64,000 nucleotides of DNA from an uncultured Acidobacteriota bacterium (GCA_963796275.1 CAWCKY010000006.1:2144001-2208000), one strand, 5' to 3'. Positions 14,089 to 25,818 are shown, numbered from the stretch's first letter. The notes: generated from the sequence alone by a model not told the origin. Numbers and translations: made by a program.

Positions 14089-15510
14089 GTGAAACATATC
14101 AAATCCATAGTCTTCGGCTTATGCCTGTTGACGATTTTCTCCATCCCCGCATTAGCCCAACAAAAAACACTATATGAGCGCCTGGGCGGCAAAGACGCGA
14201 TCTCAGCGGTGGTTGATGACTTCGCCGGGAACGTGCTCGGTGATCCTCGCATCAACAAGAAATTCGCCAGGACCGATCCGGCGCGTCTGCTCGCCAACCT
14301 CAAAGATTTCGTCTGCTTCGCGACTGGTGGCCCGTGCCAGTATACCGGTCTCGATATGAAGACATCTCACAAGAATATGGCGACAACGGCGGGCGAGTTT
14401 AATGCTCTGGTCGAAGACCTGGTCAAGACTCTGGATAAGTTCAAAGTTCCGGATAAAGAGAAGAATGAGCTGCTCGGCGCGTTGGCTGCGTTGAAGGGTG
14501 ACATCGTAGAGAACCCGTCGAATGCGACCGGAACGGAACTGCCCGCCAACTTTAGTCCCGCTCCGCCACTGGGAGCAAAAGCTGCTGCTCCTGTCGCGTC
14601 CACCCAGTCAAAAACACTATTCGATCGCCTGGGCGGCAAAGACGCGATCTCCGCGGTGGTTGATGACTTCGCCAGTAACGTGCTAGCTGATCCTCGCATC
14701 AACAAGAAATTCGCCAGGACCGATCCGAACCGCCTGCTCATCAACCTCAAAGATTTCGTCTGCTTCGCGACTGGTGGCCCGTGCAAATATACCGGTCTCG
14801 ACATGAAGACATCTCATAAGAATATGGGGACAACGGCAGGCGAGTTCAGCGCTCTGGTCGAAGACCTGATCAAGACTCTGACTAAGTTCAAAGTTCCGGA
14901 AAAAGAGAAGGGTGAGCTGCTCGGCGCGTTGGCTGCGTTGAGGGGCGACATCGTCGAGAACGAATCGATCTTTACCGGCACGGAACTGCCCGCCAGCTTT
15001 AACCCCGCTCCGCCACTGGGAGGAGCTCCAACCGCTTCCGCCGCGTCAAAAAACGGAACGCTCTATGATCGTCTCGGTGGGATGCCGGCAATCTCAGCGG
15101 TAGTTGATGACTTCGCCAAGAACGTGCTCGGCGACGCTCGCATCAACAAAAAATTCGCCAGAAGCGACGCGACGCGACTGGTCTCCAATCTCAAAGATTT
15201 CGTGTGCAGCGCTACGGGCGGCCCCTGCCAGTACAATGGTCTGAGCATGAAAAAATCGCATGACAAGATGCGTGTTACGGGCGGCGAGTTCAACGCTCTG
15301 GTCGAAGACCTGGTCAAGTCTCTCGACAAATTCCGGGTCGGGGAAAGAGAGAAGAATGAACTGCTCAGCGCGTTGGCCGGGTTGAAGGGCGACATCGTCA
15401 AGGAGAAGTACGACACGTCCGAGACCGGCACGGAACTGCCCAAGGGCTTCAAACCTGCTCCGCCAATCGGAGTCACAAAAGGTTCGAAGGCGATGAAGAA
15501 GAAGAACTAA
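14089..15510 (+). CDS. Secreted protein with three tandem group-1 truncated haemoglobin (2/2 globin, GlbN-like) domains
   Basis: GTG start after a GGAGG RBS and a Sec signal ending in ALA|QQ. Three copies of TL(Y/F)x[13 protein letters not shown]...D.RINKKF...FVC.ATGGPC.Y.G..MK.SH..M....GEF.ALVEDL...L.KF.V...EK.ELL. Confidence 0.92.
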
Positions 15511-20340: not shown

Positions 20341-21510
20341 ATGAAGAGAATCCATCATCTACTTGCCGTATCGCTATGCTGTGTATTGCTATGCTGCCTG
20401 AATATGGCAGCGTTCTCCGGTGCCGATCAGGAGAAGCGACCGCTCAGGCTAGCCGTAGCAGGCCTGAGCCACGGGCATGCCCCGTTAATCCTCGGCCGCA
20501 AGGATCGCGGCGACGTGCAACTCACCGGCATTTACGAAAAGAATCGCGAGGTCGCCGAGCGATACGCCAACCGCTATAAATTAGCGTCGTCGCTCTTTTT
20601 CACCGATCTGGAGAAGATGCTCGACGAGGTAAAACCGCAAGCCGTGGCCGCTTTCGGGACGACTTTCGATCATCTGGCCGTCGTGCAAGCCTGCGCGCCC
20701 CGCGGCATACACGTGATGGTGGAGAAGCCGCTGGCGGCGAGCTTGCAGCACGCACTCGAAATCGAGGCGCTGGCGAAGAAGCACCGCATCCACGTGATCA
20801 CCAATTACGAGACGACCTGGTATGCGAGCAATCAAGCTGTTTACGATTTTGCTCATAAGGAAAAGGCCCTCGGCCCGCTGCGCAAGATCGTCGTGCACGA
20901 CGGGCATCAGGGCCCGCAGGAGATCAAGGTCCCGCCGGAATTCCTTAAATGGCTGAATGATCCGGTATTGAACGGAGGCGGTGCGCTGATGGACTTCGGC
21001 TGTTACGGAGCCAATCTCGCCACCTGGCTGATGAAAGGAGAAGAACCCCTGACCGTCACGGCGGTGACGCAACAATTCAAGCCCGAGATATATCCGAAGG
21101 TCGATGACGAAGCCACGATCGTGCTGGCCTATTGCGATGCGCAGGCGATCATTCAGGCTTCCTGGAACTGGCCGGTCAACCGCAAGGATATGGAAGTGTA
21201 TGGGCGCGACGGCTACGCACATGCGCTGGACGCGCGCAACGTCAGACTGAGAAAACCGGGCGAACAGCAGGAGACCCCTCTCAAGCTGGCGGGGAAATCG
21301 GATCCCCTGGATGATCCCTTCGCTTACTTCGCAGCGGTGGTACGCGGCGATATCCAGATCGGTCAGAATGACTTGTCTTCATTCGCGAATAATATGACTG
21401 TCATGCGGATACTCGATGCGGCCAAGCGATCGGCGGCTACCGGTAAAACGGTGAAGCTGGCGACCGCCCGATGTGCTGGACAGAATGGGCGAGGGACGGC
21501 CAATCAATAG
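20341..21510 (+). CDS. Gfo/Idh/MocA family oxidoreductase with putative signal peptide
   Basis: LRLAVAGLSHGH, GIHVMVEKPLA, GGGALMDFGCYG, VDDEATIVL. Confidence 0.9.
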   Translation: MKRIHHLLAVSLCCVLLCCLNMAAFSGADQEKRPLRLAVAGLSHGHAPLILGRKDRGDVQLTGIYEKNREVAERYANRYKLASSLFFTDLEKMLDEVKPQAVAAFGTTFDHLAVVQACAPRGIHVMVEKPLAASLQHALEIEALAKKHRIHVITNYETTWYASNQAVYDFAHKEKALGPLRKIVVHDGHQGPQEIKVPPEFLKWLNDPVLNGGGALMDFGCYGANLATWLMKGEEPLTVTAVTQQFKPEIYPKVDDEATIVLAYCDAQAIIQASWNWPVNRKDMEVYGRDGYAHALDARNVRLRKPGEQQETPLKLAGKSDPLDDPFAYFAAVVRGDIQIGQNDLSSFANNMTVMRILDAAKRSAATGKTVKLATARCAGQNGRGTANQ

Positions 21511-21535
21511 TCGTCCACGCGATAACGACAAGAGG

Positions 21536-23836
21536 TTAAATCGGAAAGAGCAGATCGCAATTTGCGCCGGATCGGCCCGGCCCATTGGATGAATCATCGT
21601 TGGCGATGACGCCGACCTCTTTGGCGGCGGCTTTGAGCCGGGCAGCGTACTCCTGCCGATCATAGTGAGCCGTGCCATTGCGATTGGTTGTACTGACCCG
21701 GTCGGCTTTCTTCTTCGCCTTTGCATTCGTGATCACATATCCGATCTTTTCGCCGGGGTGTACCTTAACTCCATCGTCGATCAGTTCGCGGGCGGCGAGT
21801 GCGGCTCGCGTTTCGACTTCGTATTCTTTGATCTCGCGGCTCAAGACCTGCTCGATGATCAGCAGGCGAGGGTCGACCTGCCCGCTTTCCAGTTGGGCGA
21901 GGCGAGCCTCGTAGATTGGGCGCGCTTCCTGCCGGCGCTGATGAAGCTCTTCGATGTCGCGCGCCTGAGACATCACGGCGAGCATCTCTTCCTGCGCCTC
22001 TCTGATGAACTGCGGCGTATCGTGTCGCCGGCAAGCCAGGCCGCGAATTTTCATGCTGCCATCGGTGAATACCCCGTAAAATCTCGCCGCCACCGGACGT
22101 GTTGATTTGACCTTCGACGGGGCGAAGACCAGCCAGCGATAAACGCCTTCGATGCTCATCTCGATTCCGGTTGCGCCGGTGATCGTTTCGCAGAGCCTCG
22201 GCAATTCTTCTTCGGTCAGGCCTTCCTTCATTATCCAAAGGCTGTCGGTCAGCGCGTGCAGCATCTCGAAGCCGGCATCTTCGGCTATCTCTTTCGCTCG
22301 CAGCAGCGTCTCCCGCCCCCAGGCCGTCACGGCCTCGTGCGCTTCGATGCGCCCCATCCGCGCGTTTTTATAACCCATATACCCGAAGCAGGTGACCAGC
22401 ATCCATTTGATCGCCGCGCGCCGGGCGTCGTAAATCGCCCGCGTCCGCTCATCCACGCTCTTCATCAACTGTTTGTAAACCCGACGCCGCTCGACCAGCG
22501 GCTCGAGCGTGAGCGGGATCAATCCGCGGCGCTTCTCGCAAATGTTGTAGCCGGCTTCGGGCACGGCGCTGTTCCGGCAGCACGAACAGAGCACGGTTTC
22601 GGGCGAAATGTTGCGCGTGACCATCAATGATGGATACATCGAGGCGAAATCTATCTCGGCTATGTTTTCGTATTCGCCGATCCTCGGTTGAAACGTCAAC
22701 CCGCCTTTGTCCACGGTCAGCAGCTGCAAAGCGGTCTTCGCTTTCTCGGGCTCATTCTTGCGCCAGGGGACCAGGATGCCGTCGTTGATGGCGCGATCCA
22801 TTTGCAGCGACGTCATGGCGGTTCCCGGCGACCGGCGCGCCGTTCTCTGCACGGGCAGCCGCGAGAGCCTGGCCAGCTCCAGCAGCCCCTCCAACCCGGT
22901 TTCGCCGTGCGCGAATGAGCTCTCGCGATCGATGTGCCAGCGCCCGCGGAGCGGATAACTCGGCGGTTTGTAGACGATGTTGCCGTAGCTGAAATAGGTG
23001 CGGCCTTCCGTCTCGATCTTGCGCTCGGTGACGACGCGATCGCGATCGAGCAGCAATTGCAGCTTTTCGCTTTGGGCGACCTGCAGCAATGCGGGAAGCA
23101 GCACCGAGTCGCCGCGCTCGCTCAGGATCAGGTCGGGGTCGTATCGCTCGATCATCCCGTTGAAGGCGGCGATCGCTTGCGCGCCGAGGGCAGGGTGGAG
23201 AACCGTCTCATCGCTCTCCGTCGCAATGAGGATGCGGCTCGCCCTGGTCAACGGGCGCATCCGCTCGCCGCGCATTCGCATCACGCGCAGCGGCGGCAGC
23301 GGGTGATCGATCTTCCACGCCGAGTCGGTTGCGGCGATTTCGATTACGGCGCCGCGCTCGTCGACGCGGGCTTCGAGGCGGCAGAGGGGAAAAAGTTTGG
23401 TCAGATAGAGGTAATGTTGCGGCGTCGGAATATCGAGGTTGTAGAAGCTGATCTCGCGATCCAGATTCGCCGCGATGTCGCGCAGCTTCGACAGGTGCGA
23501 CGAATCGGAGATGTTGAGCTGAATCACCTCGATCTCTTCGCCGCTCCAGAACTCGCGCTTGCGGGCCCAGCACAGTCCGGCGATCAGGTCGCGTTTGCAC
23601 ATATCCGCCGCGAGCTGTTTCAGTCTTCCTCGGTCGCCGTAAGCGTAAACCGGCGGATAGAATTCATCGGTCAACCGGTGCAACCGCCCATCGTCGTCAT
23701 AAACCCACAGAGTCACCCAGGGGCCGAGCTCGTCGATATCGAAGAGCCATCCCTCGATTCGATTGCCGGCGGTGGGCGATCCTTTGAGAAGCTTATTGGG
23801 TACGGGAAAGGGATGATGCGGCTCACTTCTTCGCAT
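21536..23836 (-). CDS. Family B DNA polymerase, archaeal PolB2/Dpo2-like (degenerate exonuclease)
   Basis: Motif A EIDFASMYPS..NISPET, motif B AIKWMLVTCFGYMGYKNARMG, motif C HALTDSLW (first Asp of YGDTDS lost), and KIRGL..RRHDTP.F. No recognisable Exo I-III acidic motifs. Start uncertain (23836 ATG or 23848). Confidence 0.9.
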   Translation of the reverse strand: MRRSEPHHPFPVPNKLLKGSPTAGNRIEGWLFDIDELGPWVTLWVYDDDGRLHRLTDEFYPPVYAYGDRGRLKQLAADMCKRDLIAGLCWARKREFWSGEEIEVIQLNISDSSHLSKLRDIAANLDREISFYNLDIPTPQHYLYLTKLFPLCRLEARVDERGAVIEIAATDSAWKIDHPLPPLRVMRMRGERMRPLTRASRILIATESDETVLHPALGAQAIAAFNGMIERYDPDLILSERGDSVLLPALLQVAQSEKLQLLLDRDRVVTERKIETEGRTYFSYGNIVYKPPSYPLRGRWHIDRESSFAHGETGLEGLLELARLSRLPVQRTARRSPGTAMTSLQMDRAINDGILVPWRKNEPEKAKTALQLLTVDKGGLTFQPRIGEYENIAEIDFASMYPSLMVTRNISPETVLCSCCRNSAVPEAGYNICEKRRGLIPLTLEPLVERRRVYKQLMKSVDERTRAIYDARRAAIKWMLVTCFGYMGYKNARMGRIEAHEAVTAWGRETLLRAKEIAEDAGFEMLHALTDSLWIMKEGLTEEELPRLCETITGATGIEMSIEGVYRWLVFAPSKVKSTRPVAARFYGVFTDGSMKIRGLACRRHDTPQFIREAQEEMLAVMSQARDIEELHQRRQEARPIYEARLAQLESGQVDPRLLIIEQVLSREIKEYEVETRAALAARELIDDGVKVHPGEKIGYVITNAKAKKKADRVSTTNRNGTAHYDRQEYAARLKAAAKEVGVIANDDSSNGPGRSGANCDLLFPI

Positions 23837-24098
23837 TCCGCAACTCACTTTCCAATTCGTCCACGCGGGTTCGCAAATGCTTCTCTTCTCTGAGCATTTC
23901 GATCAGCATGGAGATGAAGACCGATTCCATCGGTTCGGGATTGGCCGCCTGCACGGCCGCCTGCACGTGCAGGCGCGCGCGTTCAAACAGCTCATCGAAA
24001 AGCTCCTGATCCCGCTTGCGCAGCGAGCGCCTGAACTGTCCCAAACGTTTTTGCTGTTCGGCCAACACCATACTGAATGGCAGGACCGTTCTTCCCAT
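23823..24098 (-). CDS. Small alpha-helical PolB2-associated protein (arCOG07300/PPB2-like)
   Basis: MGRTVLPF...FRRSLRKRDQELFDELF..AR.H..A......PMESVFISMLIE plus a coiled-coil tail. GGGAGG RBS. Overlaps the polB start. Confidence 0.78.
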   Translation of the reverse strand: MGRTVLPFSMVLAEQQKRLGQFRRSLRKRDQELFDELFERARLHVQAAVQAANPEPMESVFISMLIEMLREEKHLRTRVDELESELRNAKK

Positions 24099-24138
24099 TA
24101 GCCACCTCCCGATCTCGAGATGTAAGGACAACTCGGGT

Positions 24139-24185
24139 TACGGGGCATATATACGGGGCATAAATTGCTAAAGAGTCGCTGTCAA
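24139..24185 (-). promoter_or_regulatory. Possible internal promoter/operator: TTGACA plus 11-bp direct repeat
   Basis: TACGGGGCATA occurs at 24139-24149 and 24152-24162. A perfect TTGACA lies on the minus strand at 24185-24180. The -10 element is poor. Confidence 0.35.
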
Positions 24186-24216
24186 CGGTTGGGGCTATGA
24201 CGAACGACGCTCTTCA

Positions 24217-24816
24217 CTATGCGATCAACGAACGACCGCTACTATTTTCGAGCGTAAATGTGCGCTCTCCCTCCAGCCGGATCACCACGTTCGAGGCGCG
24301 GATGAGATCGGTCAGAAAGTGAGCGCGTTGAGGCTGGTCCGGCGTCTCGCTCTGCGCGAGCAGCAATGCCAGCCCTTCCCGCGATAACTCGCGCAAACGC
24401 CACAGCGAACGGTAAAACATGCGAGCCGCGTCGGTATGCGTGACATCTTCGTCGAGGAAGGTCGTGCAGATGCCGGAGACGATGACGACGGAGTAGGTGT
24501 CCTCCAGGGTGTCGGGGAGTTCGAGGCGATGAATCAGTTCATCGAGCTGGTAGGCCGTAAACGCGCGGGTGACCAGGATGCGTCCCAGAACCTCTTCCGG
24601 GTTTTTCTGTTGTGATCTGGCGCACCTGGCGACGATGTAGGGGTCGAACCGGTTGTCGCCGCAAAGGTAGAGAGACGGTTTGTGTTCGCAAGCCAGCTGC
24701 GCGGCCAGGTGTACGCCCAACGCCGAGGCATGGCCGCCGTACACGGTGACCATGCGCGATGGAAGAATCGAAGCGCGCACCGCACGCGGCGCAGAGCTGA
24801 TCGGTAGAGTTCGCAT
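24217..24816 (-). CDS. Inactivated RecA/RadA-fold protein (iRadA, ImuA-analogous)
   Basis: Degenerate P-loop VTVYGGHASALG (no GKT), YLCGDNRFDPY, ILVTRAFTAYQL, Walker-B-like VVIVSGI..FLDEDV. GGAGG RBS. Confidence 0.72.
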   Translation of the reverse strand: MRTLPISSAPRAVRASILPSRMVTVYGGHASALGVHLAAQLACEHKPSLYLCGDNRFDPYIVARCARSQQKNPEEVLGRILVTRAFTAYQLDELIHRLELPDTLEDTYSVVIVSGICTTFLDEDVTHTDAARMFYRSLWRLRELSREGLALLLAQSETPDQPQRAHFLTDLIRASNVVIRLEGERTFTLENSSGRSLIA

Positions 24817-25305
24817 GACAAAACCTCCAACGTAATCGAACTACTCGTGCCTGCGAACCACTTGAACTTCATACCCCGCACGCGACGTCTTAGGAATCGC
24901 CCGTGATTTTTTGCTTGGAAAGTCTGTTTGCCTGATGAGGTGGAAACCGCAAACCGACGGTCAGGGGACATTATCGAAGTTCGCCGAAAATTACAAGCTG
25001 AGAGAGGGCGGCCCGCCCTGTTCTTCACGGTTCGGTAAGGATGAAAAGCCGCAATGAACCGCTCTAAACCTCCGGCTTCAATGACAATTGCATGGAACGC
25101 GCCGATGGCTATATCGAGAATGTAATTTTAAAGGTAATTTTAAAATGAAGGTTGTGTAAAAAGAAAGACAAATAGCATAAACAGCCCGGAGTTCAGAGCG
25201 GGGGACGCGCAATGTCCGGCTTTTGATTCGCCGGTATCGTTTGCAGCCTGCTTTGGTAGTCTATTCCGCCATAGGCGCGGGCCCGATTGCGGGAATCAGC
25301 AGCGT

Positions 25306-25818
25306 TCAGTTTGACCCGGTTTTGTTACTCGGGTCATCGGCCGGATTCACCCAGATGGTCTTGAATGGACCGATGCCGTGAAGTTGGATTATGGTCTCCC
25401 CTTCGGCCCACACGAAGTGTCGCATCTCTCTCGGCATCATCAAGTATGAGCCGGCAGGCAGAGATGTGGCCCCCGCGCGATCGAACTTCTCTCCCATTCC
25501 GGCGTGGAGAGTTCCCGTCATTACGGTGAGGTGCTCGTCTATCGGATGCCAGTGCGGTGGCACTTGCAGGCCATCCCTGAGTTTCAGCCGGATGACGAAT
25601 GGCGCGCCCTCTTTTGCAGGATCTCCCGATAAGACTGCAATCTCCAGCCCCGGCGAGCGCGGCTTCCATTCAACCTTATCCGGTGTGACCTTTTTGCCGT
25701 GCGCTTGAGCTTTATCGGCAGGCGATGCCGAGGTCTGTTGTCTCTGAGCTATGGTAGATGGCGAATAGACCAATTGACTGAGAACAAATAGAAACATGAA
25801 CGCTAGATACTTTTTCAT
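25306..25818 (-). CDS. Secreted cupin domain protein (DUF4437-like)
   Basis: Signal peptide, AVLSGDP...PFVIRLK, VPPHWHPIDEHLTV, MRHF, IQLHGIGPF. Confidence 0.85.
   Translation of the reverse strand: MKKYLAFMFLFVLSQLVYSPSTIAQRQQTSASPADKAQAHGKKVTPDKVEWKPRSPGLEIAVLSGDPAKEGAPFVIRLKLRDGLQVPPHWHPIDEHLTVMTGTLHAGMGEKFDRAGATSLPAGSYLMMPREMRHFVWAEGETIIQLHGIGPFKTIWVNPADDPSNKTGSN

What the first reader, a model, noticed from the sequence alone, without database searches (positions are those of the whole stretch)
21536..24816. Archaeal-type PolB2 cassette in a bacterium: inactive RadA-like protein, small helical partner and exonuclease-degenerate PolB
Seen in sequence: three co-oriented genes, with the small gene overlapping the polB start. 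The polymerase has intact motif A (DFASMYPS) but motif B KWMLVTCFG instead of KxxxNSxYG and motif C HALTDS instead of YGDTDS, and no recognisable exonuclease carboxylates. The RecA-fold protein has lost its Walker A Lys. Established: these substitutions and partner genes typify the archaeal PolB2 group, whose Sulfolobales member Dpo2 is damage-inducible and contributes to mutagenic damage tolerance. Bacterial members are known from genomics but, to my knowledge, are largely uncharacterised. Inference: this is a bacterial mutasome functionally parallel to ImuA-ImuB-DnaE2 but built on a B-family enzyme. No phage, integrase or casposon genes flank it.
Basis: partly seen in the sequence, partly recalled or inferred. 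Interest (0 to 1): 0.85.

Follow-up and report, generated by a model that had tools for sequence, protein, structure and literature searches.

The report
Bacterial PolB2 translesion polymerase operon
Three neighbouring genes in a soil acidobacterium encode an archaeal-type, proofreading-less DNA polymerase and its two helper proteins, a damage-tolerance machine whose bacterial form has been described in print but never tested at the bench.

Summary
Three co-oriented minus-strand genes lie exactly where stated:
- an inactive RadA-like protein, iRadA (24217-24816);
- a 91-aa helical protein, PPB2, starting MGRT (23823-24098);
- a B-family polymerase, PolB2 (21536-23836).
All quoted motifs are present.

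The interpretation also holds. The polymerase sits in a 100%-supported clade with bacterial and Bathyarchaeia PolB2, apart from other archaeal PolB paralogues and E. coli Pol II. The order iRadA-PPB2-PolB2 recurs in 61 of 65 species loci with enough upstream DNA. A model places PPB2 against both PolB2 and iRadA (ipSAE 0.70, best control 0.00).

It is not new. Makarova et al. 2014 and Timinskas et al. 2025 describe this bacterial operon, its MGRT arm, its clamp motifs and its link to lexA.

What this locus adds:
- Its promoter resembles the lexA promoter of a related lexA-iRadA-PPB2-PolB2 cassette and carries TTCG direct repeats like the family's lexA promoters. The lexA gene itself appears to have been deleted.
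- The PolB2 C-terminus carries a conserved [LP]LFP clamp-like tail.
- No dnaE2 was found in this genome.

Verdict: new member of a known kind.

The parts
24217..24816 (-). iRadA: catalytically inactive RadA/Rad51-core protein, 199 aa
   Evidence: ORF; translation. Pfam Rad51 E 2e-4, below cut-off. A family profile hits archaeal RadA at 4e-13. The AF2 model has pLDDT 90.8 and matches DMC1/Rad51/RadA cores, Foldseek E about 1e-9, TMq 0.70. GGAGG lies before the ATG.
24715..24738 (-). Degenerate Walker A position of iRadA (G27-GHASAL-G34; no Lys/Thr)
   Evidence: No conserved GK[TS] anywhere in the 34-row family alignment.
23823..24098 (-). PPB2: small helical partner, 91 aa, N-terminal MGRT arm
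   Evidence: x-G-R-[TN] start in 67 of 69 PPB2 hits from other species; M1 G2 R3 invariant in A2. AF2 pLDDT 87.2, helices 8-18, 20-24, 28-50, 56-90. A source annotates homologues with PF26485.
21536..23836 (-). PolB2: B-family polymerase, proofreading site lost; 766 aa from ATG 23836 (the ORF runs up to GTG 23848)
   Evidence: Pfam DNA_pol_B 4.7e-35. NCBIfam NF004416 418 bits and NF004418 367 bits, against Pol II models at 59 bits or less. Tree.
22628..22651 (-). Motif A, DFASMYPS (D400 invariant)
22382..22408 (-). Motif B variant, KWMLVTCFG
   Evidence: K481, W482, F488, G489 conserved across PolB2 representatives.
22241..22258 (-). Motif C variant, HALTDS (first Asp of DxD is Leu; D535 invariant)
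   Evidence: Loss of the first Asp is typical of PolB2.
22696..22711 (-). D380-K381-G-G: the conserved D(K/R) motif; predicted contact site for PPB2
   Evidence: D380, G382 and G383 invariant. PolB2 residues 374-389 touch PPB2 in the model. The match to the paper's DK motif is my inference from its distance to motif C.
21539..21556 (-). C-terminal DLLFPI: candidate beta-clamp-binding tail
   Evidence: [LP]LFP is kept after a variable acidic linker in 27 of 27 closest homologues (P0004-P0030). Comparable Q..LF tails occur on PolB2 or iRadA in other phyla. The paper reports clamp motifs on one or the other.
24968..24998 (-). Candidate LexA-controlled promoter: TTGTAA (-35), TTTTCGG-CGAAC-TTCGA, TAATGT (-10)
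   Evidence: 24/31 identical to the promoter of the G011 lexA-iRadA-PPB2-PolB2 cassette. Conserved in 5 family loci. Same layout as the family's chromosomal lexA promoters. Against: the consensus scan calls no sigma-70 site here.
24841..24932 (-). Probable remnant of the 3' end of a deleted lexA gene (approximate limits)
   Evidence: 30/38 match to the last codons of G011 lexA plus RBS, collinear with the promoter match: 110 nt apart here, 625 nt apart in G011. By eye.
24099..24216 (-). Enlarged iRadA-PPB2 spacer with a duplicated ATGCCCCGTA (24152-24161, 24139-24148)
   Evidence: The spacer is 62-121 nt in the six nearest loci and 2-21 nt (none in one locus) in six more distant ones. No Rfam hit; fold z -1.7. 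Function unknown.
21510..21529 (-). Terminator-like hairpin just after the PolB2 stop
   Evidence: Weak: 6 such sites in the region against 4.3 expected.

Best explanation
The locus is a bacterial PolB2 'mutasome' operon in a Blastocatellia (Acidobacteriota) genome.

How it most likely works (inferred):
1. One transcript runs from a promoter about 150 nt upstream of iRadA and encodes iRadA, PPB2 and PolB2. PPB2 and PolB2 are translationally coupled through a 14-nt overlap.
2. The three proteins assemble. PolB2 is the catalytic subunit, with no proofreading. An ATPase-dead RadA core docks on it. PPB2 (a trimer in the published models) inserts its MGRT N-terminal arm at the PolB2/iRadA junction near the DKGG loop.
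3. The complex is brought to the sliding clamp by the C-terminal [LP]LFP tail of PolB2. It extends distorted or mismatched primer ends past lesions, as shown for the archaeal homologue Dpo2.
4. Expression is probably held down by LexA through TTCG direct repeats between the -35 and -10 boxes, and released after DNA damage.
5. In this lineage the cassette's own lexA gene seems to have been deleted, so control would fall to the chromosomal LexA.

Shown here: gene content, motifs, phylogeny, synteny, folds, and a supported model of PPB2 docking.

Inferred: polymerase activity, clamp use, LexA control, mutagenic role.
For: Identity.
- NCBIfam's best models are the two 'type B DNA polymerase' models that also best match the Bathyarchaeia PolB2.
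- In the tree, the window sits in a 48-row clade (100% SH-aLRT) of bacterial plus Bathyarchaeia PolB2. A 100% branch separates Bacteria from Archaea.

Synteny.
- 9 of 9 family loci that hold the PolB2 N-terminus carry both partners.
- 61 of 65 species loci carry iRadA, then PPB2, then PolB2.

Defining motifs.
- MGRT.
- D380-K381.
- LTD in place of DxD.
- Walker A and B lost.

Folds. iRadA matches the Rad51/RadA core. PPB2 is helical.

Complex.
- PPB2 against PolB2+iRadA scores ipSAE 0.70; the best of 3 controls scores 0.00.
- That mark was reached by 58 of 80 solved complexes and 2 of 110 mismatched pairs.
- Runs agree in at least 87% of contacts; partner pLDDT is at least 84.
- Contacts: PPB2 2-6, 11, 36-56; PolB2 374-389, 512, 581-585; iRadA 52-84.
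- My own alignments and three chains were used, so the calibration counts hold only roughly.

SOS link.
- lexA lies upstream and co-oriented in 21 of 80 loci, 17 of them near full length, including two Acidobacteria. It lies directly before iRadA in family genome G011.
- The window's promoter matches that cassette's promoter.
- It carries TTCGG-N5-TTCGA in the spacer, laid out like the lexA promoter of same-genus genome G002.
- That pattern occurs 333 times in 18.9 Mb of both strands, about 0.005 per 300 nt. The pattern was chosen after seeing the site.

Clamp. [LP]LFP tail in 27 of 27 closest homologues.

Literature.
- Read sections: the same operon, MGRT arm, DK motif, clamp motifs and lexA enrichment.
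- Passages: the bacterial lexA-linked example.
- Listing and start of abstracts only: Dpo2 as a damage-inducible extender.
Against: - No expression, binding or activity data exist for this or any bacterial member that I could find. No RNA run holds the locus.
- The consensus scan finds no sigma-70 promoter upstream. My -10 box (TAATGT) matches only 3 of 6 positions.
- The TTCG repeats here are spaced 10 bp apart. The strongest repeat pair in the family's lexA promoters is spaced 11 bp (TTTTCGGTATATTTTCGG). LexA binding is therefore uncertain.
- The three perfect 18-mers in this genome are at lexA and two small orphan genes, not here.
- With lexA deleted, the operon might be unregulated.
- The clamp tail (CDLLF) departs from the QL[SD]LF consensus, which I recall rather than tested. 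It is absent from more distant family members.
- PPB2 was modelled as a monomer and iRadA-PolB2 contacts were not scored.
- Distribution is patchy: 8 of 41 relatives hold a match, one of them only a 42-aa fragment and one broken by transposons. The operon is therefore dispensable.
Confidence: 0.75

Rival explanations
1. The polymerase is catalytically dead. The three proteins form a non-enzymatic complex that regulates or remodels stalled forks or replication initiation. This is the older view of PolB2.
For: Motif C has lost its first Asp and motif B differs from KxxxNSxYG. The exonuclease site is gone. Makarova et al. 2014 discuss an inactivated polymerase with a regulatory role (passages).
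Against: D400 (motif A) and D535 (motif C) are invariant across 32 diverse representatives, as are Y405, P406 and many palm and finger residues. The Timinskas paper states that Sulfolobus PolB2, which also lacks the first Asp, is required for targeted mutagenesis and is active in vitro. Clamp-binding tails make most sense for an enzyme working at primer ends.
Confidence: 0.1
2. The cassette belongs to, or acts as, a mobile or anti-phage element rather than a housekeeping damage-tolerance system.
For: Distribution among relatives is patchy. The family appears in about ten bacterial phyla and was probably transferred horizontally from archaea. Some 59%-identical homologues carry a C-terminal TIR domain, a hallmark of immune systems.
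Against: No integrase, transposase, phage or Cas1 gene was found among the ten flanking ORFs scanned. The recurrent neighbour is lexA, not defence genes. The window's protein has no TIR domain. PADLOC was not searched.
Confidence: 0.05
3. The operon is a decaying relic in this genome. It is intact by ORF but no longer properly expressed, because its dedicated lexA and regulatory context were lost.
For: lexA is apparently deleted upstream. No consensus promoter was found. A family relative has the polymerase broken by Tn7-like and integrase insertions, and another holds only a fragment.
Against: All three ORFs are full length with conserved motifs and good ribosome-binding sites. Five family loci that lack lexA keep the same promoter block, which argues for selection. 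27 close metagenomic homologues keep even the C-terminal tail.
Confidence: 0.1

Closest known systems
Prokaryotic PolB2 operon / 'PolB2 mutasome' (iRadA-PPB2-PolB2; Makarova et al. 2014, Timinskas et al. 2025; archaeal prototype Sulfolobus Dpo2)
   Same: Same three families in the only gene order reported for bacteria. Also shared: the MGRT arm, the D(K/R) motif, loss of the first Asp of DxD, a dead exonuclease, a dead RadA ATPase lacking its N-terminal domain, a clamp-type tail on one subunit, and a lexA association.
   Different: Here lexA appears to have been deleted while its promoter block stays. The iRadA-PPB2 spacer is enlarged to 118 nt with a duplicated 10-mer. The clamp-like tail is on PolB2, which the paper says is the rarer case. 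I could not check whether this genome is already in the paper's supplementary operon list, because supplements are closed.
ImuA-ImuB-DnaE2 SOS mutagenesis cassette
   Same: A three-protein, lexA-linked cassette with a RecA-fold protein of degenerate function, an accessory subunit and an error-prone polymerase. In three same-class genomes a second DnaE lies 3-4.5 kb from lexA on the same strand, which is the position the PolB2 cassette takes in G011. No genome searched held both: 0 of 8 PolB2 holders against 9 of 33 others have a second DnaE.
   Different: The protein families are unrelated: B-family against C-family polymerase, and PPB2 against ImuB. The complementary pattern is not significant (Fisher p 0.16) and kin are not independent. 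This is an analogy, not membership.
E. coli Pol V (UmuD'2C-RecA) and Pol II
   Same: Pol V: a polymerase with a small-subunit N-terminal arm, a RecA-family partner and a clamp motif, a parallel drawn. Pol II: B-family, SOS-induced, an extender.
   Different: Pol V is Y-family. This genome has its own UmuC-like and UmuD-like genes elsewhere. Pol II is a single subunit with an active exonuclease, lies far away in the tree and scores 59 bits or less on NCBIfam Pol II models.

Membership tests
PolB2 operon (iRadA-PPB2-PolB2) | The polymerase belongs to the PolB2 clade of B-family polymerases | tested here: met
   Tree of 58 rows: a 100% clade with Bathyarchaeia and bacterial PolB2, separate from two other archaeal PolB paralogue groups and E. 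coli Pol II. NCBIfam pattern is the same as for the Bathyarchaeia PolB2. Sulfolobus Dpo2 itself and phage PolBs were not in the tree.
PolB2 operon (iRadA-PPB2-PolB2) | First Asp of the DxD motif usually replaced; second Asp and the motif A Asp kept | tested here: met
   L533-T534-D535. D400 and D535 are invariant in 32 representatives. Criterion taken.
PolB2 operon (iRadA-PPB2-PolB2) | Proofreading exonuclease domain without an active site | tested here: met
   No Pfam exonuclease hit at E<=1. PDB sequence matches start only at residue 282 or later, about 308 for the best ones. hhalign shows no carboxylates at Exo I or Exo II, and Exo III falls in a gap. The reference paralogue is atypical at Exo I, so this is not a clean residue-by-residue test.
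PolB2 operon (iRadA-PPB2-PolB2) | PPB2: a helical protein of about 90 aa with a conserved N-terminal MGRT arm | tested here: met
   91 aa, MGRTVLPF. M1, G2, R3 invariant and T4 at least 90%. Helical model. No significant PDB fold match: best Foldseek E is 3, with sigma-factor N-terminal domains among the weak rows.
PolB2 operon (iRadA-PPB2-PolB2) | iRadA: a Rad51/RadA ATPase core without the N-terminal domain and without ATPase residues | tested here: met
   199 aa, core only. Profile to archaeal RadA 4e-13; Foldseek E about 1e-9. Walker A Lys/Thr and Walker B Asp replaced.
PolB2 operon (iRadA-PPB2-PolB2) | Gene order iRadA-PPB2-PolB2, co-oriented (the only order reported in bacteria) | tested here: met
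PolB2 operon (iRadA-PPB2-PolB2) | Conserved D(K/R) loop motif in PolB2 that meets the PPB2 arm | tested here: met
   D380-K381, with D380 invariant. PolB2 374-389 contact PPB2, including residues 2-6, in the model. Equating this with the paper's 253-DK-254 is my positional inference.
PolB2 operon (iRadA-PPB2-PolB2) | The three proteins form one complex | tested here: met
   Prediction only: ipSAE 0.70 against a best control of 0.00; the mark was reached by 58 of 80 solved complexes and 2 of 110 mismatched pairs; at least 87% contact agreement; partner pLDDT at least 84. One PPB2 copy was used, and iRadA-PolB2 was not scored.
PolB2 operon (iRadA-PPB2-PolB2) | Beta-clamp-binding motif at the C-terminus of iRadA or PolB2 (present in a fraction of operons) | tested here: inconclusive
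   PolB2 ends ...ANCDLLFPI. [LP]LFP is conserved in 27 of 27 closest homologues. iRadA here has none. No clamp docking was run.
PolB2 operon (iRadA-PPB2-PolB2) | DNA-damage-inducible expression (LexA in bacteria) | tested here: inconclusive
   A lexA-type promoter block with TTCG repeats. However, the spacing is 10 bp rather than 11, no perfect box is present and the scan calls no promoter. No RNA data.
PolB2 operon (iRadA-PPB2-PolB2) | Translesion or mismatch extender activity | not testable with these tools
   Known only for Sulfolobus Dpo2 (listing and abstract starts; statements).
E. coli-type DNA polymerase II | Single-subunit PolB with an active 3'-5' exonuclease, of the Pol II clade | tested here: not met
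ImuA-ImuB-DnaE2 cassette | A second C-family polymerase (DnaE2) with ImuB and ImuA | tested here: not met
   Only one PF07733 match in the 94.7%-complete genome. The two Y-family genes are DinB-like and UmuC-like. ImuA was not searched for on its own.

The most novel reading that the evidence does not exclude
In this Blastocatellia lineage the ancestral four-gene cassette lexA-iRadA-PPB2-PolB2 lost its own repressor gene but kept the repressor's promoter and operator. The B-family mutasome would then have been rewired to the chromosomal LexA, or left partly derepressed. It would serve as the cell's SOS mutagenesis module in place of ImuA-ImuB-DnaE2, which was found only in relatives that lack PolB2. 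This would be a natural case of two unrelated mutasomes substituting for each other at the same regulatory node.
Probability: 0.35. Interest if true: 0.45.

Novelty: new member of a known kind. Interest (0 to 1): 0.3.

Why it matters
Bacterial PolB2 mutasomes have been predicted from genomes and structure models but, as far as my two literature searches show, never tested experimentally.

They are widespread. At least 586 species genomes hold a relative, and 887 50%-identity clusters match at E<=1e-30. Many are from soil and sediment phyla in which damage-induced mutagenesis is unstudied.

This locus is a clean, complete example in a near-complete 9.5-Mb genome. It has a candidate operator, a candidate clamp tail and no dnaE2. 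That makes it a reasonable choice for first biochemical and genetic tests of:
- how a proofreading-less B-family enzyme, a dead recombinase and a small helical trimer cooperate;
- whether LexA controls them.

It does not open a new category.

Tried and rejected
Things tried that led nowhere.
- Rfam scan of 21300-25400 at E<=1: no match.
- RNA fold of the iRadA-PPB2 spacer: z -1.7, with 11 of 200 shuffles folding as well. Not pursued.
- Foldseek of the PPB2 model against the PDB: nothing at E<=0.001. The sigma-factor likeness reported in the paper shows up only as weak rows.
- Public sequencing runs: no RNA holder listed.
iRadA-PolB2 and the PPB2 trimer were not scored.

LexA operator work.
- A genome-wide scan for TTCG[GA]N5-6TTCG[GA] filtered to 'intergenic' sites wrongly dropped both the lexA and PolB2 promoters, because spurious ORFs cover them. 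I abandoned that filter and used the exact 18-mer instead.
- The repeat pattern is not enriched genome-wide relative to neighbouring spacings.
- The upstream regions of recA, dinB, the umuC-like and the umuD-like genes were inspected by eye only. recA has a TTCGG-N6-TTCCG; the others have none.

Rejected reading: a casposon or protein-primed PolB element. No Cas1, integrase or terminal-protein genes were found among the flanking ORFs scanned, and the tree places the enzyme in PolB2.

Not done.
- Phage PolBs and Sulfolobus Dpo2 were not put in the tree.
- PADLOC and PHROGs were not searched.
- ImuA was not searched for on its own.
- Paper supplements are closed, so I could not see whether this genome is already in the published operon tables.

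Full report
**1. What is there**

The polymerase translation contains all three quoted motifs:
- DFASMYPS
- KWMLVTCFG
- HALTDS

Two start codons need correcting.
- The small ORF contains an internal ATG at 24098 preceded by GGAGG. Starting there gives a 91-aa protein beginning MGRTVLPF.
- The 27 closest polymerase homologues start at the residue equal to M5 of the ORF, which is ATG 23836.

With these starts, the polymerase start overlaps the end of the small gene by 14 nt. This suggests translational coupling.

The window is part of a 9.46-Mb, 7-contig genome that is 94.7% complete. Sources name the closest homologues Blastocatellia, or Acidobacteria.

**2. The three proteins**

*Polymerase*
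- Pfam sees only the polymerase domain of family B (4.7e-35) and no exonuclease domain.
- The best NCBIfam models are two 'type B DNA polymerase' models, at 418 and 367 bits. PolB1-type models score 107-178 bits and Pol II models 59 bits or less.
- The same NCBIfam pattern is seen for a Bathyarchaeia homologue.
- The nearest solved structures are Thermococcales PolBs, E about 6e-45, matching only from about residue 308 onward.

*RecA-fold protein*
- On its own it matches Pfam Rad51 only below threshold.
- A 34-row family profile hits archaeal RadA at 4e-13.
- Its AF2 model (pLDDT 90.8) matches DMC1, Rad51 and RadA ATPase cores, Foldseek E about 1e-9, TMq about 0.70.
- It has no N-terminal domain.
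- The Walker A position reads GGHASALG and the Walker B Asp position is Ser. Neither motif is conserved in the family.

*Small protein*
- It hits nothing in the local Pfam. A source annotates its homologues with PF26485, which is not in the local copy.
- It folds as 3-4 helices, pLDDT 87.2.
- It has no significant PDB fold match.

**3. It is already described**

A full-text search led to Timinskas, Timinskas and Venclovas 2025 (PMC11791011). I read the outline, sections 3.1-3.3 and the Discussion. The paper reports:
- PolB2 operons in Archaea and Bacteria encoding PolB2, an inactive RadA (iRadA) and a small helical protein (PPB2, formerly arCOG07300).
- In bacteria, only the order iRadA-PPB2-PolB2.
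- A conserved MGRT arm at the PPB2 N-terminus.
- A conserved D(K/R) loop motif in PolB2.
- Usual loss of the first Asp of DxD.
- A decayed exonuclease.
- A beta-clamp motif on either iRadA or PolB2.
- Enrichment of lexA nearby.
- High-confidence models of a PolB2-iRadA-PPB2(x3) pentamer.

Passages of Makarova et al. 2014 (PMC4104785) already describe the bacterial four-gene form with lexA, in Leptospirillum ferriphilum.

Experimental work on Sulfolobus Dpo2 appears in the search listing. I saw titles and abstract starts only.

I found no paper reporting experiments on a bacterial member in searches. Supplements are closed, so I cannot say whether this genome is in the published operon tables.

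**4. Membership tests run here**

*Phylogeny*

The tree used IQ-TREE 'quick', LG+C20+F+G4, with 743 columns and 58 rows:
- the window;
- 5 family relatives;
- 41 of the 80 genome-contig loci: all 6 archaeal, and every second entry of the ordered locus list for the bacterial ones. L053, L095 and L101 were dropped as truncated;
- a second Bathyarchaeia copy;
- 9 other Bathyarchaeia PolB paralogues;
- E. coli Pol II as outgroup.

Results:
- The window falls in a 48-row clade with 100% SH-aLRT support, made only of bacterial and Bathyarchaeia PolB2-like proteins.
- A 100% branch separates Bacteria from Archaea.
- The tool warns that long branches meet near the outgroups, so the deep order is unsure. 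The PolB2 clade itself is not affected.

*Conserved residues* (32 representatives at 50% identity or less)
- D380, G382, G383: the DKGG loop.
- D400, Y405, P406: motif A.
- F488, G489: motif B.
- H531, D535: motif C.

*PPB2 arm*
- 67 of 69 PPB2 hits in other species start x-G-R-[TN]. The other 2 are cut by contig ends.
- M1, G2 and R3 are invariant.

*Exonuclease*
- A profile-profile alignment to an archaeal paralogue shows no acidic residues at Exo I, Leu at the Exo II Asp column, and a gap over Exo III.
- The reference is itself unusual at Exo I, so this supports the claim but does not prove it.

**5. Synteny and distribution**

*Among 41 related genomes, including this one*
- 8 have a match.
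- Within the family, 7 of 24. In other families of the class, 0 of 16.
- One match is a 42-aa fragment.
- One gene is split by a Tn7-like transposon and two tyrosine-recombinase genes.

*Partners in the family*
- All 9 loci that hold the polymerase N-terminus carry PPB2 and iRadA upstream in the same order.

*Across phyla*
- The best 80 come from Acidobacteriota, Thermodesulfobacteriota, Myxococcota, Nitrospirota, Chloroflexota, Bacteroidota, Ignavibacteriota, Chlorobiota, Armatimonadota, Sumerlaeota, Methylomirabilota, Spirochaetota and others, plus 6 Bathyarchaeia.
- Of the 65 loci with at least 1100 nt upstream, 61 have iRadA, then PPB2, then PolB2, co-oriented. L065, L070, L077 and L081 do not.
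- The representative library holds 887 clusters at E<=1e-30.

**6. Complex model**

The chains were PolB2 33-744, iRadA 1-195 and one PPB2, each with my own alignment.
- PPB2 scored ipSAE 0.70, against 0.00 for the best of three controls.
- That mark was reached by 58 of 80 solved complexes and 2 of 110 mismatched pairs.
- Runs agree in at least 87% of contacts. Partner pLDDT is at least 84.
- The job differs from the calibration (own alignments, three chains), so the counts hold only roughly.
- I know of no solved PolB2 complex, so a pass from memory of solved structures seems unlikely.

Contacts:

| Chain | Residues in contact |
|---|---|
| PPB2 | 2-6, 11, 36-56 |
| PolB2 | 374-389 (around DKGG), 512, 581-585 |
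| iRadA | 52-84 (the conserved DGxNRFDPY ... R84 block) |

This is the position the paper describes for the PPB2 arm. The model supports binding but does not show it. The PPB2 trimer and the iRadA-PolB2 interface were not scored.

**7. Regulation**

*Conserved upstream block*
- In five family loci (window, L002, L003, L005, L009) the region 150-200 nt upstream of iRadA holds a conserved block: TTG[TC]AA, then TTT[TC][CA][GA]G, then N5-6, then T[TC][TC]CG, then a -10-like box.

*A relative that still has lexA*
- In family genome G011 a full lexA (201 aa) lies directly before iRadA.
- Its promoter is TTGCAATTTTCGGTAGATTTCGGTAACGT.

*Evidence for a lexA deletion here*
- blastn aligns the window's upstream DNA to the G011 region in two collinear pieces.
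- Piece 1 is the promoter: 24 of 31 identical, E 0.006.
- Piece 2 is the last lexA codons plus the RBS: 30 of 38 identical, E 1e-4.
- The pieces are 110 nt apart here and 625 nt apart in G011. This fits a deletion of about 515 nt of lexA in the window's lineage.

*lexA near the cassette in other species*
- lexA is upstream and co-oriented in 21 of the 80 species loci.
- 17 of these are near full length, including Acidobacteria L052 and L054.

*Origin of the cassette-linked LexA*
- The three acidobacterial cassette-linked LexAs (L021, L052, L054) lie inside the 100%-supported clade that also holds all 17 chromosomal LexAs of the window's class.
- G011's copy groups with its family's chromosomal LexAs at 97%.
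- The cassette repressor is therefore a host-type LexA, and cross-control by the chromosomal copy is plausible.

*Chromosomal lexA promoters of the family*
- They share TTTTCGGTATATTTTCGG, a direct repeat with an 11-bp period over the -10 box.
- Some carry a further TTCG repeat upstream. G002 reads TTGCTTTTTTCGGCGACTTTCGGTATATTTTCGG, against TTGTAATTTTCGGCGAACTTCGATAATGT in the window.
- A direct-repeat SOS box (GTTCN7GTTC) is tabulated for Caulobacter (PMC9578287, passage).
- The title of Mazón et al. 2006, seen only in a reference list, links the Acidobacterium LexA box to the alphaproteobacterial type.

*Against LexA control here*
- The repeats are 10 bp apart, not 11.
- The three perfect 18-mers in this genome lie at lexA and before two paralogous small orphan genes.
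- The loose pattern occurs 333 times genome-wide, about 0.005 per 300 nt. It was defined after the fact.
- The consensus scan finds no sigma-70 site here.

LexA control is therefore likely but unproven.

**8. Clamp tail**

- The window's PolB2 ends ...GANCDLLFPI.
- All 27 closest homologues (P0004-P0030) keep [LP]LFP after a variable acidic linker.
- More distant family members lack it.
- In other phyla, Q..LF-type tails sit on PolB2 (for example QQLDLF, QIPLF) or on iRadA (QPRLF, QLRLF). This is the pattern the paper describes.

**9. Other damage-tolerance genes in this genome**

- One lexA, plus a UmuD-like S24 protein (109.6 bits against a cut-off of 110).
- One DinB, over the cut-off.
- One UmuC-like gene, below the subfamily cut-off and 23 kb from the UmuD-like gene.
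- Only one PolB and only one DnaE-type gene were found, so no dnaE2 was found.

Among the 41 relatives:
- 9 of the 33 genomes without PolB2 have a second DnaE match. 0 of the 8 with PolB2 do.
- Fisher p is 0.16, and kin are not independent. The pattern is suggestive only.
- In three same-class genomes the second DnaE lies 3-4.5 kb from lexA on the same strand. This mirrors where the PolB2 cassette sits in G011.

**10. Verdict**

The locus is a well-preserved bacterial PolB2 mutasome operon, a kind already defined in print by comparative genomics and structure modelling but not yet by experiment in bacteria.

What is particular here:
- the apparent loss of the cassette's lexA with retention of its promoter block;
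- the PolB2-borne clamp-like tail;
- the enlarged iRadA-PPB2 spacer;
- the lack of dnaE2.

Noticed in passing
L022 (G003:C58:133000-149500): In a same-family genome the PolB2 gene is split into three pieces over about 12 kb. The insertions carry a TnsA/Mu-transposase-like fusion, TniB, TniQ, two tyrosine recombinases and a PIN gene. iRadA and PPB2 are still upstream of the first piece.
   Followed up: partly
Proteins P0092, P0108, P0118-P0120, P0123 (homologues, 58-61% identical): Some bacterial PolB2 homologues carry a C-terminal TIR domain, where the window's protein has its clamp-like tail: residues about 745-866 in P0092 and about 743-840 in P0119. I did not see this in the sections of the 2025 paper that I read.
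   Followed up: partly
P0116 and many representatives of about 1210-1306 aa: Intein-bearing PolB2 genes (LAGLIDADG plus intein splicing domains). Matches break at query residue 488/489, inside motif B.
   Followed up: no
G000:C6:2243858(-) and G000:C7:687105(-); ORFs L150:3807-4118(-) and L151:3534-3923(-): Outside the lexA promoter, the only two perfect copies of the 18-base lexA-promoter repeat in this genome precede two paralogous small ORFs (103 and 129 aa). These have no Pfam match. They may be LexA-controlled small proteins.
   Followed up: partly
G000:C6, about 1767290-1767340, upstream of the UmuC-like gene (L016): A tandem 16-mer GTAAGAAC[CT]TAATTGT lies just before the UmuC-like gene. 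It differs from the TTCG repeats and may be an operator for another repressor.
   Followed up: no
window 24099-24216 (-): The iRadA-PPB2 spacer is 118 nt here, with a duplicated ATGCCCCGTA and conserved GTGCCCCG / TTTGCATCTC blocks in the six nearest loci. It is only 2-21 nt (absent in one locus) in six more distant relatives.
   Followed up: partly
G025:C70, G026:C56, G030:C5: In three same-class genomes that lack PolB2, a second DnaE-type gene lies 3-4.5 kb from lexA on the same strand. This is probably the classical lexA-imuA-imuB-dnaE2 cassette.
   Followed up: no
window 14089-15510 (+): A 473-aa ORF with three separate matches to the bacterial-like globin domain.
   Followed up: no
G011 (C91 and C41): This family genome has two lexA genes: one chromosomal with the canonical promoter, and one at the head of the PolB2 cassette with a variant promoter whose repeats are spaced 10 bp.
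   Followed up: partly
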